Source: a virus
Lineage: Duplodnaviria > Heunggongvirae > Uroviricota > Caudoviricetes
Strand: one strand, 5' to 3'
Length of the DNA: 11,019 nucleotides
IMG/VR virus record: IMGVR_UViG_2600254997_000001
In this document: positions 4,818 through 6,066 of the stretch, in pieces
How the letters are laid out: every line of letters begins with the position of its first letter
Numbering within the stretch: position 1 is the stretch's first letter
Made by a program: the position numbers and the translations under genes
Notes under the pieces: generated by a model
Seen by the model: the letters and a program-made list of their open reading frames with translations, nothing else
The model's database searches: none
Told to the model about the DNA's origin: nothing

Positions 4818-6066
4818 ATGAGTCGAATAGTACCATTTATACACCTGCATTTGTTGAAAGTATTTCAAAATTACCTTGAAACTCAGGAAATTGATCCTCG
4901 ATATTTCTACTACATCATTTTCGGCCTAAAAATCCTCTGTGCCGAAGCATTCCCCGGTTTCACCCTCGACGATTACGAAGACCTCGAATTTATCCCTCGC
5001 CCGCATTCCCACGACTGGGACATCTATCAGGAAATCGACCATGTTCTGGATCCGCTCGAAAAAAGCATGATCAGTAAAGGCTTGTTTGAAATGGCTACGT
5101 CGATTCGCTATGGCGAAAACTACAGTTTGAACACCATTCGAGATGCATCAATTCTGGGACTGACTTATGTCACCGGAGCCCGCCCGGCACAACTGGCCAA
5201 GCTGGCAACAAAAGATTTGCGCATTGATACCCGAAACCCCGAAACCGGGTTAATACGCTATAGCTTACTTCTGCCCTACGCCAAACAGCGGCGCGTAACG
5301 ACTGAACGTCTGTTTTTGGCGATTCCAGCGGAAATCGGCGCGTTGATTAGGCACTATATCGAGCGAGCGCAACTAAAACCTGATGGCAAGTTATTTGAAT
5401 TTAGTCACTCTGCACCATTTTATGTGTCCAAGGCGATTAGCAAGGCCATCCTCAGATTCAGTCCTCCAGATTATCAGGCTGCCGTAGCGCGTGGCGAAGC
5501 GGCTTTGCCAACCATTACGCCGACCGACTTGCGCCACAACGTGGGCCATTCACTGGCTATGCAAGGGGGCAGCGCCGAAGAAATTGCGCATATTACTGGG
5601 ACATACCTCACTTACTGTTGCCAAGTATTACATCCTGGCGACGCCTGCGCTGGCACTGATTCGAGCCAAATCATTGGGTACCAATCCGGTATGGCAAAAC
5701 ATGGTAGCTATGATGTTGACAGGTGAACTGACCTCTTCAACGGAATGGCAAGGCCAGCGCGTGGTCGGCATAGTCGGTGATCAGTTGCATGATGGGATTG
5801 GCGGTTGCTCCAGAGATGATGGCGAATGTCCGTTCTGTGAAGTACGCTGCTGCTACGGTTGCCTGTATTACCGCCCCTTTACTGATGGTGACCACCAGGC
5901 GGTGCTGGAGAGTGTAGTTAAAGAAGTCGATGAATTGATTTCCATTTCAGACAGTGTTGGCAACGCCCGCAATCCACTTATTTCCATCCATGAAACCACA
6001 CAATTTGAAATTCAATCCGTGATTGCCCGTTGCCGTTTTCATCAAGAAAAAGGCGGTGTGCGATGA
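4818..6066 (+). pseudogene. Tyrosine recombinase 2 (GinB-like position) with an apparent +1 frameshift at the LLGH box, and a Cys-rich C-terminal extension
   Basis: Frame 3 (4818-5726) carries GARPAQLAKL (Arg box) and LRHNVGHSLAMQGGSAEEIAHI. Frame 1 (5491-6066) carries LGHTSLTVAKYYI (LGH plus catalytic Tyr). Removing one base near 5590-5596 gives LRHNVGHSLAMQGGSAEEIAHILGH, the same 25-residue spacing as XerC [25 protein letters not shown] (recalled). The stop overlaps the next gene's ATG (ATGA at 6063-6066). Confidence 0.65.

What the first reader, a model, noticed from the sequence alone, without database searches (positions are those of the whole stretch)
5586..5600. Single-base frameshift inside the LLGH catalytic box of the second recombinase
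Frame 3 reads ...LRHNVGHSLAMQGGSAEEIAHITGTY... and frame 1 reads ...KKLRILLGHTSLTVAKYYI.... Joining them with one base removed around 5595 (CATATTACTGG) restores RH-(22 residues)-LGH-(10 residues)-Y with canonical spacing. As sequenced, the catalytic tyrosine is out of frame, which would inactivate this recombinase. Since all gin genes are reported essential for GInt mobility, the element would be locked in place unless the frameshift is an error or is bypassed.
Basis: seen in the sequence. Interest (0 to 1): 0.5.

Follow-up and report, generated by a model that had tools for sequence, protein, structure and literature searches.

The report
Probable sequencing-error frameshift in truncated recombinase
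The one-base frameshift is really in this deposited sequence, but it is almost certainly a sequencing error in one draft E. coli genome, and it sits in a mobile-island recombinase gene that an older, genuine 278-base deletion had already truncated.

Summary
An extra A at window 5595 splits the second recombinase gene (ginB) of a three-recombinase island (GInt) between frames 3 and 1. Removing it gives a 415-codon ORF.

The window is bases 1-11019 of contig ALNX01000011.1, the draft genome of EPEC strain E851/71. The extra A is private to that assembly:
- None of 35 complete E. coli genomes carrying this stretch has it.
- An independent 5-Mb contig (L013) is identical over 12,494 bp, with 0 substitutions. 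It differs only by this A and by an extra T in a T-run of ptuA.
- The repaired protein occurs on 13 other contigs; the broken fragment occurs on one.
- The same contig has five more private homopolymer indels, which break zot and pIV.

A sequencing error is the best explanation (about 0.8). A recent private mutation is the main rival. Programmed recoding is rejected.

A 278-bp out-of-frame deletion at 4870/4871, shared by at least 63 contigs, removes residues 27-119 of the ancestral 516-aa GinB. This includes invariant residues and about half of the Cre-like DNA-clamp domain. If the island is immobile in this lineage, that deletion is the likely cause.

The finding is ordinary. In passing, the island directly abuts dif.

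The parts
5595..5595 (+). Extra A that shifts ginB from frame 3 to frame 1. It is private to this draft assembly.
   Evidence: Alignment to L001 and to L008, L012 and L013. Absent from all 35 complete E. coli genomes that hold this 61-mer.
4818..5726 (+). Upstream ORF fragment of ginB as sequenced (302 aa). The first 17 residues are out-of-frame junk, residues 18-259 correspond to GinB residues 119-360, and the rest is a frameshifted tail.
   Evidence: Pfam Phage_integrase scores only 23.9 bits, below the 27.1 cut-off. This exact product is found on one contig only.
5596..6066 (+). Downstream part of ginB in frame 1. It holds LGH (H363), the catalytic Y372 and the C-terminal Cys-rich extension (516-aa numbering).
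4793..4879 (+). Native ginB start (ATG 4793, GGAG six bases upstream). It now opens a 28-codon ORF ending at the TGA at 4877-4879 because of the deletion.
   Evidence: native-start translation in the window against L001. RefSeq CDS start in L001.
4870..4871 (+). Junction of a 278-bp out-of-frame deletion (L001 7572-7849). It removes GinB residues about 27-119. The lesion is real and shared by a lineage.
   Evidence: Shared by L008, L012 and L013 and by proteins P0001, P0003, P0004 and P0006 on at least 63 contigs. Absent from 28 complete genomes that carry the undeleted form.
3409..4809 (+). ginA, the first tyrosine-recombinase-like gene (466 aa). It is intact.
   Evidence: 100% identical to L001. 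BLASTP to the GinA position of the E. coli Sakai GInt gives E = 8e-17. Pfam Phage_integrase scores 24.2 bits, just under the cut-off.
6063..8429 (+). ginC, a large third recombinase-like gene (788 aa) with no Pfam match.
   Evidence: BLASTP to Sakai GinC (ECs_3510) gives E = 2e-9 across the HxxR...Y region.
8429..8863 (+). ginD-position small gene (144 aa).
   Evidence: Position, size and overlap of stop and start codons. No family match. No BLASTP similarity to Sakai GinD.
3235..3262 (+). dif-like site (27 of 28 bases match E. coli dif). The island begins at 3263, directly after the XerD-binding arm.
8980..11019 (-). Start of the island cargo: an Xre/MbcA-type antitoxin pair, a pseudogene, and ptuB of retron Ec78. 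RT and ptuA lie beyond the window.
   Evidence: RefSeq annotation of L001 and called genes in L003.

Best explanation
The extra A at 5595 is most likely a base-calling or assembly error in the draft genome of E. coli E851/71 (ALNX01000011.1). It is probably not a feature of the organism. The true sequence most likely encodes an uninterrupted 415-aa product, identical to WP_051646762.1.

That product is itself a relic. A real, lineage-wide 278-bp deletion removed codons 27-119 of a 516-aa GInt recombinase (GinB). This put the native start out of frame and left an ORF that begins at a fortuitous ATG at 4818.

GinB is a Cre/Xer-type tyrosine recombinase with R223, K257, R340, H363 and Y372. It has an extra N-terminal beta module and a Cys-rich C-terminal extension. 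In the studied Pseudomonas GInt it acts with GinA, GinC and GinD to excise and integrate the island.

Shown here: the private status of the insertion, the shared deletion, the conservation and fold of the deleted part, and the limits of the island. Inferred: that the insertion is an error rather than a very recent mutation, and that the truncated GinB is inactive.
For: 1. L013, an independent 5.05-Mb contig, is identical to the source contig over 12,494 bp. There are 0 substitutions and only two single-base insertions, both in the source contig: A5595 in ginB and a T in a T-run of ptuA. Each breaks a gene (ptuA also).
2. No complete E. coli genome carries the extra A. All 36 records (35 genomes) with this 61-mer show the gap.
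3. The repaired protein is found exactly on 13 contigs. The broken 302-aa fragment is found on one. No other fragment in its cluster shares its frameshifted tail.
4. In its phage part, the same contig has five further single-base deletions, all in A or T runs. They split zot and pIV, which are intact in L004 and L008. That is about one private indel per 2 kb.
5. All 29 full-length homologues at 36-100% identity read straight through AHILGH...Y without a shift.
6. The deletion is shared by L008, L012 and L013 and by at least 63 contigs, including EPEC1 strains DEC2B, DEC2D and 2362-75.
7. The deleted segment is kept in all 28 other homologues of that alignment and holds invariant D42, W53 and G59.
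8. In the AlphaFold model (mean pLDDT 81; about 90 or above across residues 21-120) the deleted segment covers the beta module and the first helices of the N-terminal domain. The model's best matches are full-length Cre, XerA and XerH.
Against: - The insertion at 5595 is not in a homopolymer, which is where consensus indel errors usually fall.
- I could not see reads or learn the sequencing platform.
- L013 is a different isolate, with a different filamentous prophage next to dif, so this is not literal resequencing of E851/71.
- The allele is decaying in related strains: other disruptions appear and only fragments remain in E2348/69. A real second hit would therefore not be surprising.
- The five phage indels are judged against relatives that are only 99.2% identical, so some could be real.
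Confidence: 0.8

Rival explanations
1. The extra A is a genuine, very recent mutation private to strain E851/71 or its laboratory stock. It would be a second inactivating hit in a ginB allele already crippled by the 278-bp deletion and drifting as a pseudogene.
For: The insertion is not at a homopolymer. The deletion allele has been disrupted again, independently, in other strains (P0033, P0034 and P0035; P0002). It is reduced to fragments in E2348/69. Both substitutions in ginB relative to MB64 are non-synonymous, which fits relaxed constraint, although the numbers are small.
Against: There are 0 substitutions but 2 frameshifting insertions in 12.5 kb relative to L013. In E. coli mutation-accumulation data as I recall them, indels run at about one tenth the rate of base substitutions, so two indels before any substitution would be roughly a 1% outcome. 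The contig carries many other private homopolymer indels that break genes intact elsewhere. The broken product is seen on one contig only.
Confidence: 0.17
2. The shift is a programmed +1 recoding site. Ribosomes would bypass it to make full-length GinB, giving a regulatory control on island mobility.
For: Nothing beyond the fact that a +1 shift at this point would restore the protein.
Against: The extra base is absent from every orthologue examined: 35 complete genomes, at least 63 contigs with the deletion allele and 861 contigs with the 516-aa allele, and 29 diverse homologues. The site ATT-A-CTG has no in-frame stop or rare codon, no slippery run and no upstream Shine-Dalgarno-like element.
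Confidence: 0.01
3. Whatever the status of base 5595, the 415-aa N-terminally truncated GinB is still active or has a new role, so the island in this lineage is not locked.
For: The 415-codon ORF is open in several sequence variants on at least 63 contigs. Its ATG lies 8 nt after the ginA stop, so termination-reinitiation is conceivable. It keeps all catalytic residues. Both island ends are intact in L008 and L013.
Against: It lacks invariant D42, W53 and G59 and about half of the confidently modelled Cre-like N-terminal DNA-clamp domain. There is no Shine-Dalgarno sequence before ATG 4818. All carriers sit at the same site, which fits vertical descent. The variants differ only by amino-acid changes. 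Related strains show further decay.
Confidence: 0.15

Closest known systems
[quoted passage not shown] 2017 (PMC5385486). Also called a Tn6571-family element in Hochhauser et al. 2023 (PMC10121019).
   Same: - Four co-oriented, overlapping genes at the island's 5' end, with cargo starting right after the fourth gene and an AT-rich 3' end.
- 11-nt imperfect direct repeats at the two ends.
- Gene-by-gene similarity to a GInt of E. coli Sakai listed by Idola et al. 2023, for the A, B and C positions.
- GinB models as a Cre/Xer-like recombinase, as reported for Gin proteins.
- Defence-system cargo, as reported for E. coli GInts.
   Different: - The gene at the ginD position shows no BLASTP similarity to Sakai GinD.
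- The attachment site is the outer edge of the XerD arm of dif. Bardaji et al. list an ABC transporter gene, ssb and a ribonucleotide reductase gene as sites.
- In this lineage ginB is N-terminally deleted.
SE, strand-biased circularizing integrative elements (intA-tfp-intB-srap), Idola et al. 2023 (PMC10214605).
   Same: Also a four-gene module with tyrosine-recombinase-fold proteins and a small accessory protein at one end of an island.
   Different: In SEs the recombinase-fold protein without a catalytic Tyr is the second gene. Here the second gene carries the full R-K-R-H-Y set and the atypical large protein is third, which is the GInt order. That study found SEs in about 0.3% of Escherichia replicons and GInts in 7.5%. 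This element occurs in 271 of 5,426 complete E. coli genomes.
Indel errors in early draft genome assemblies, which produce artefactual split genes.
   Same: Private single-base indels at about one per 2 kb, mostly in A or T runs. Each splits a gene that is intact in near-identical genomes.
   Different: The indel at 5595 is not in a homopolymer. The platform and reads could not be examined.
IMEX, integrative elements that exploit XerCD at dif (for example filamentous prophages such as CTXphi or CUS-type phages; from general knowledge).
   Same: The filamentous prophage at window 1-3234 ends in a hybrid dif site at 3235-3262, as expected for an IMEX. The GInt lies on the other side of the same dif.
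   Different: The GInt encodes its own recombinases. It leaves a perfect dif at its left end. Its right-end repeat matches only the XerD arm (9 of 11 bases), not a whole dif-like site. Its crossover is therefore not in the dif central region.

Membership tests
GInt (ginABCD island) | Operon of three consecutive recombinase-like genes plus one small gene at the 5' end of the island. | tested here: met
   Genes at 3409-4809, 4793-6066 (broken), 6063-8429 and 8429-8863 are all on the + strand and overlap by 17, 4 and 1 nt.
GInt (ginABCD island) | GinA and GinB carry the tyrosine-recombinase catalytic core (RHRHY). | tested here: met
   The ancestral and repaired GinB has R223, K257, R340, H363 and Y372, invariant or nearly so in 29 homologues. 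Pfam Phage_integrase scores 39.3 bits against a 27.1 cut-off. Foldseek matches Cre and Xer recombinases with probability 1.0. GinA scores 24.2 bits, just under the cut-off, but matches Sakai GinA at E = 8e-17. As deposited, the window's GinB has Y372 out of frame.
GInt (ginABCD island) | Sequence homology to proteins of a curated GInt. Hochhauser's criterion is at least one integrase with E < 1e-5 plus the same gene organisation. | tested here: met
   Against E. coli Sakai ECs_3512-3510, listed as a GInt in Idola et al. Additional file 10: GinA E = 8e-17, GinB E = 2e-6, GinC E = 2e-9.
GInt (ginABCD island) | GinD is a small protein with a C-terminal helix-loop-helix, homologous among GInts. 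| tested here: inconclusive
   A 144-aa gene sits in the right position, but it has no Pfam or NCBIfam match and no BLASTP similarity to Sakai GinD. No profile or structure comparison was made.
GInt (ginABCD island) | Site-specific insertion flanked by 10-17-nt imperfect direct repeats, with an AT-rich 3' end. | tested here: met
   Left repeat TTATGTTAAAT (the end of dif) and right repeat ATAAGTTAAAT match at 9 of 11 bases. The empty site is seen in K-12. The same left junction occurs in 10 of the 12 loci scanned (L003, L001, L008, L010-L016). The same right end occurs in 8 loci with four different flanks.
GInt (ginABCD island) | Excision as a circle, dependent on all four gin genes. | not testable with these tools
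   Shown only for the Pseudomonas stutzeri DSM 4166 GInt and pGInt0.
SE (intA-tfp-intB-srap) | Gene order with the Tyr-less recombinase-fold protein second. | tested here: not met
   The second gene has the complete catalytic set. The atypical 788-aa protein is third.
Programmed +1 ribosomal frameshift | The shift site is conserved among orthologues, with a slippery or hungry-codon context. | tested here: not met
   The extra base is absent from all orthologues. There is no stop, rare codon or slippery run at ATT-A-CTG.
IMEX (Xer-dependent integrative element), considered for the island | No recombinase of its own; flanked by two dif-like sites that share the central region. | tested here: not met
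   The island encodes three recombinase-like proteins. Its right end matches only the XerD-arm bases of dif.

The most novel reading that the evidence does not exclude
The frameshift itself is not the interesting part. This GInt family seems to use the outer edge of the XerD-binding arm of dif as its attachment site. It inserts with an 11-nt repeat and leaves dif intact, so a recombinase-trio island carrying defence genes (retron Ec78, an ABC-three-component system) shares the chromosome-dimer resolution site with Xer-dependent filamentous prophages. I found no paper that states this link: no paper in the library holds both 'GInt' and 'dif site', and Hochhauser et al. list hipA-ydeT only as hotspot #20. 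A less likely addition is that the 415-codon truncated ginB, still open on at least 63 contigs, is expressed and has a function.
Probability: 0.4. Interest if true: 0.4.

Novelty: not a real feature. Interest (0 to 1): 0.1.

Why it matters
As given, the finding matters little. It is most likely an artefact of one error-prone draft assembly, and pseudogene calls made from that assembly (ginB, ptuA, zot, pIV) should not be trusted without reads.

The analysis does correct how the locus should be read:
- The ancestral GinB is 516 aa.
- The EPEC1-type allele is a real deletion derivative of 415 aa.
- The island is a roughly 15-16 kb GInt carrying phage-defence genes, and it directly abuts dif.

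Anyone testing GInt mobility in E. coli should use a strain with the 516-aa allele, such as MB64, and can use the 415-aa allele as a natural N-terminal-domain mutant.

Tried and rejected
- Exact-pattern scans for the 44-mer carrying the frameshift found nothing in the species-representative genomes or in the viral contigs. The source was found through an exact protein look-up instead.
- I looked for this element in the GInt list of Idola et al. Additional file 10. The stored file is cut, and neither the RefSeq protein ids nor E2348/69 appear in it. I used the listed Sakai GInt as the reference instead.
- I tried to learn the sequencing platform of ALNX00000000. The only paper that cites it gives the strain name (E851/71) and no methods.
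- A sequence search of GinB against PDB chains gave only weak hits (E >= 0.12). These were useful only for lining up motifs. The fold search was decisive.
- BLASTP of GinD against Sakai GinD found no similarity.
- Counting synonymous and non-synonymous changes as a test of relaxed selection gave too few changes to carry weight: 2 non-synonymous and 0 synonymous in ginB, 1 and 2 in ginC.
- I considered whether the 278-bp deletion is an assembly artefact and rejected it. It is present in four independent assemblies and on at least 63 contigs.
- I considered Xer-mediated integration of the island and rejected it on the anatomy of the junctions.

Full report
**Observation.** The window has three co-oriented recombinase-like genes followed by a small gene. 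The second is split. Frame 3 runs from 4818 to a stop at 5726 and reads ...DLRHNVGHSLAMQGGSAEEIAHITGTY... Frame 1 reads ...KKLRILLGHTSLTVAKYYI... and continues to 6066. The closest complete relative in 5,426 complete E. coli genomes is strain MB64 (L001, 99.9% identity). It has one uninterrupted 516-aa 'site-specific integrase' at this position. Some details need correcting. The restored motif is AHILGH. The spacings are RH-19-LGH and H363-8-Y372 rather than 22 and 10. The inserted base is not in a homopolymer.

The same alignment shows that the window lacks 278 bp (L001 7572-7849), with the junction at 4870/4871. The native start is ATG 4793, preceded by GGAG. In the window it opens only a 28-codon ORF that ends at the TGA at 4877-4879. 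It comes into frame only because 278 is not a multiple of three. The first 17 residues of the window ORF are junk, and GinB residues about 27-119 are missing.

**Source of the window.** An exact look-up of the 302-aa fragment finds one contig among the public assemblies: ALNX01000011.1 of GCA_000754045.1, with the window at bases 1-11019. ALNX00000000 is cited as E. coli E851/71. I recall this strain as a classical O142:H6 EPEC of the EPEC1 lineage that also holds E2348/69; no tool result here gives its serotype or lineage.

**Is the extra A real?** Several results bear on this.
- None of the 36 records (35 complete genomes) that hold the surrounding 61-mer has the extra A. The best identity is 98.4%, which corresponds to the single gap.
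- A look-up with the window's PtuB brought in ten loci. One of them, L013, is a 5.05-Mb contig of GCA_901482685.1. It is identical to the source contig over 12,494 bp (source positions 3233-15726) with 0 substitutions and only two differences. Both are single-base insertions in the source contig: A5595 in ginB and a T added to a T-run in ptuA at 12434. The second splits a 550-aa gene.
- Deleting A5595 gives a 415-aa protein identical to P0001 (WP_051646762.1), which is recorded on 13 contigs from several sources. The broken fragment is recorded on one. None of the other fragments in its cluster shares its frameshifted tail.
- In its filamentous-prophage part the same contig carries five more private single-base deletions, all in A or T runs. 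They split zot into three pieces and the pIV secretin gene into three. Both genes are intact in L004 and L008.

In total there are seven private single-base indels in 15.7 kb, and each breaks a gene that is intact in near-identical genomes. Two frameshifting indels with no substitution in 12.5 kb is very unlike real divergence. From memory of E. coli mutation-accumulation work, indels occur at about one tenth the rate of base substitutions. The pattern is what an indel-prone draft produces. I put about 0.8 on an error and about 0.17 on a real, very recent private mutation.

The caveats are as follows. The 5595 insertion is not at a homopolymer. I could not see reads or learn the platform. L013 is a different isolate with a different phage beside dif. 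The allele is demonstrably decaying in relatives, so a real second hit is plausible.

**Programmed +1 recoding is rejected.** No orthologue carries the extra base. This holds for the complete genomes, for contigs with either allele and for 29 full-length homologues down to 36% identity. The site also has none of the usual recoding signals.

**The deletion is real.** L008, L012 and L013 carry it and have an open 415-codon ORF. Proteins with the diagnostic junction ...LLKVFQNYLETQ... (P0001, P0003, P0004, P0006) are recorded on 13, 22, 19 and 9 contigs. These include DEC2B, DEC2D and 2362-75, which I recall as EPEC1 strains. The 516-aa allele is recorded on 861 contigs in E. coli, Klebsiella and other Enterobacteriaceae. 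Full-length homologues in Pectobacterium, Dickeya, Aeromonas, Vibrio, Shewanella and Photobacterium are 504-561 aa. The deletion is therefore derived. None of the 28 complete genomes matching the junction region has it.

**What the deletion removes.**
- All 28 other homologues in the alignment keep the segment aligned to residues 27-119 (88-93 of 93 positions filled). It contains invariant D42, W53 and G59 and nearly invariant P30, S58 and K77.
- An AlphaFold2 model of the 516-aa protein has mean pLDDT 81, and about 90 or above across residues 21-120. It shows a small beta module (strands 32-65) followed by helices 70-86, 89-109, 114-121, 128-143 and 151-159. Then come the catalytic domain and a C-terminal extension.
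- Foldseek aligns about 350 columns to full-length Cre, XerA, XerH, Tn1549 Int and IntI with probability 1.0. This agrees with the Phyre2 result reported for Gin proteins.
- The deletion therefore takes out the beta module and the first two to three helices of the Cre-like DNA-clamp domain.

I infer that the 415-aa product is inactive, but this is not shown. Weak supporting signs exist. Both ginB substitutions relative to MB64 are non-synonymous. The allele has further independent truncations in other strains. In E2348/69 only 142 bp of ginB and 388 bp of the ginC/ginD junction survive.

**Identity of the element.**
- Gene order, sizes and overlaps fit ginABCD.
- The A, B and C products match, position for position, the GInt of E. 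coli Sakai (ECs_3512-3510) listed by Idola et al.: E = 8e-17, 2e-6 and 2e-9. The identities of 21-28% are similar to the 24-40% reported between GInt families.
- The ginD-position gene shows no BLASTP similarity to Sakai GinD, so that feature is unresolved.
- The gene order is that of a GInt, not an SE.

**Island limits.** Homology between K-12 and the island-bearing strains stops exactly at the last base of dif (window 3262). In MB64 it resumes about 15.7 kb later. The ends carry the repeats TTATGTTAAAT (left, the XerD arm of dif) and ATAAGTTAAAT (right), and the right end is AT-rich. The same left junction is present in 10 of the 12 loci scanned. The same right end is present in eight loci with four different downstream flanks. 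The cargo is an Xre/MbcA antitoxin pair, retron Ec78 (RT, PtuA, PtuB), and an AAA ATPase with an ABC-three-component system. GInts carrying defence systems in E. coli are already described, and hipA-ydeT is catalogued as integration hotspot #20.

In the Pseudomonas model, each of ginA-D is needed for excision and integration. The statement that the island would be locked in place is reasonable for this lineage. The likely cause is the shared 278-bp deletion, not the single base at 5595.

**Verdict.** The frameshift is present in the deposited sequence but is most likely not a feature of the organism. Underneath it lies an ordinary, degraded copy of a known kind of mobile island. Interest is low. 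The only mildly new point is that the island abuts dif.

Noticed in passing
window 3235-3300; L001 5936-5975; L007 3658-3690: The GInt starts at the base after dif. The 11-nt imperfect repeats TTATGTTAAAT (the XerD arm of dif) and ATAAGTTAAAT flank the roughly 15-16 kb island, and K-12 shows the empty site. The same left junction occurs in 10 of the 12 loci scanned, and the same right end in 8 loci with four different flanks. No paper in the library linking GInt and dif was found.
   Followed up: partly
window 1-3262: This is the tail of a filamentous prophage (DUF2523, Zot, pIV/GspD secretin) ending in a hybrid dif site (AGTGCG...), which is an IMEX-type insertion. Its zot and secretin genes are split by five single-base deletions in A or T runs (near 892-896, 1043-1048, 1388-1391, 1964-1966, 2290-2295). 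These are absent from L004 and L008, so they are probably sequencing errors too.
   Followed up: partly
L003 12434 (source contig, beyond the window end): ptuA of retron Ec78 is split (471 + 96 aa instead of 550 aa) by an extra T in a T-run. Apart from A5595, this is the only difference from L013 in 12.5 kb.
   Followed up: yes
window 5780-5870 (GinB residues about 429-455): GinB and all 28 homologues have an invariant Cys cluster (C431, C438, C446, C449 in GGCxRxxxxCPFxEVRxCYGC) in a C-terminal extension after the catalytic Tyr. It is modelled as beta hairpins and may be a zinc-binding module, which is not typical of Cre/Xer recombinases.
   Followed up: no
L005 8997-9525 (E. coli E2348/69): In the EPEC prototype strain the same island is reduced to fragments next to dif: 142 bp of ginB (without the extra A), 388 bp of the ginC/ginD junction and a partial retron RT. 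The AAA and ABC-three-component genes and the right end are kept.
   Followed up: partly
P0002, P0010, P0033-P0035 (other strains): ginB has been truncated independently several times. P0002 starts with a ginA-derived peptide (MFTSTQKPH...), which indicates a ginA-ginB deletion fusion. P0033 and P0034 (DEC1D and others) end in foreign sequence after residue about 165. L012 has an IS21-type insertion in ginA.
   Followed up: no
window 9588-10148: Two short ORFs (80 and 98 aa) correspond to a gene annotated in MB64 as a pseudogene with an internal stop. This break is therefore shared and not specific to this assembly.
   Followed up: no
window 3594-3599 (ginA): L008 lacks 6 bp (GAAACA) present in the window's ginA, giving an in-frame variant of 464 aa against 466 aa.
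   Followed up: no
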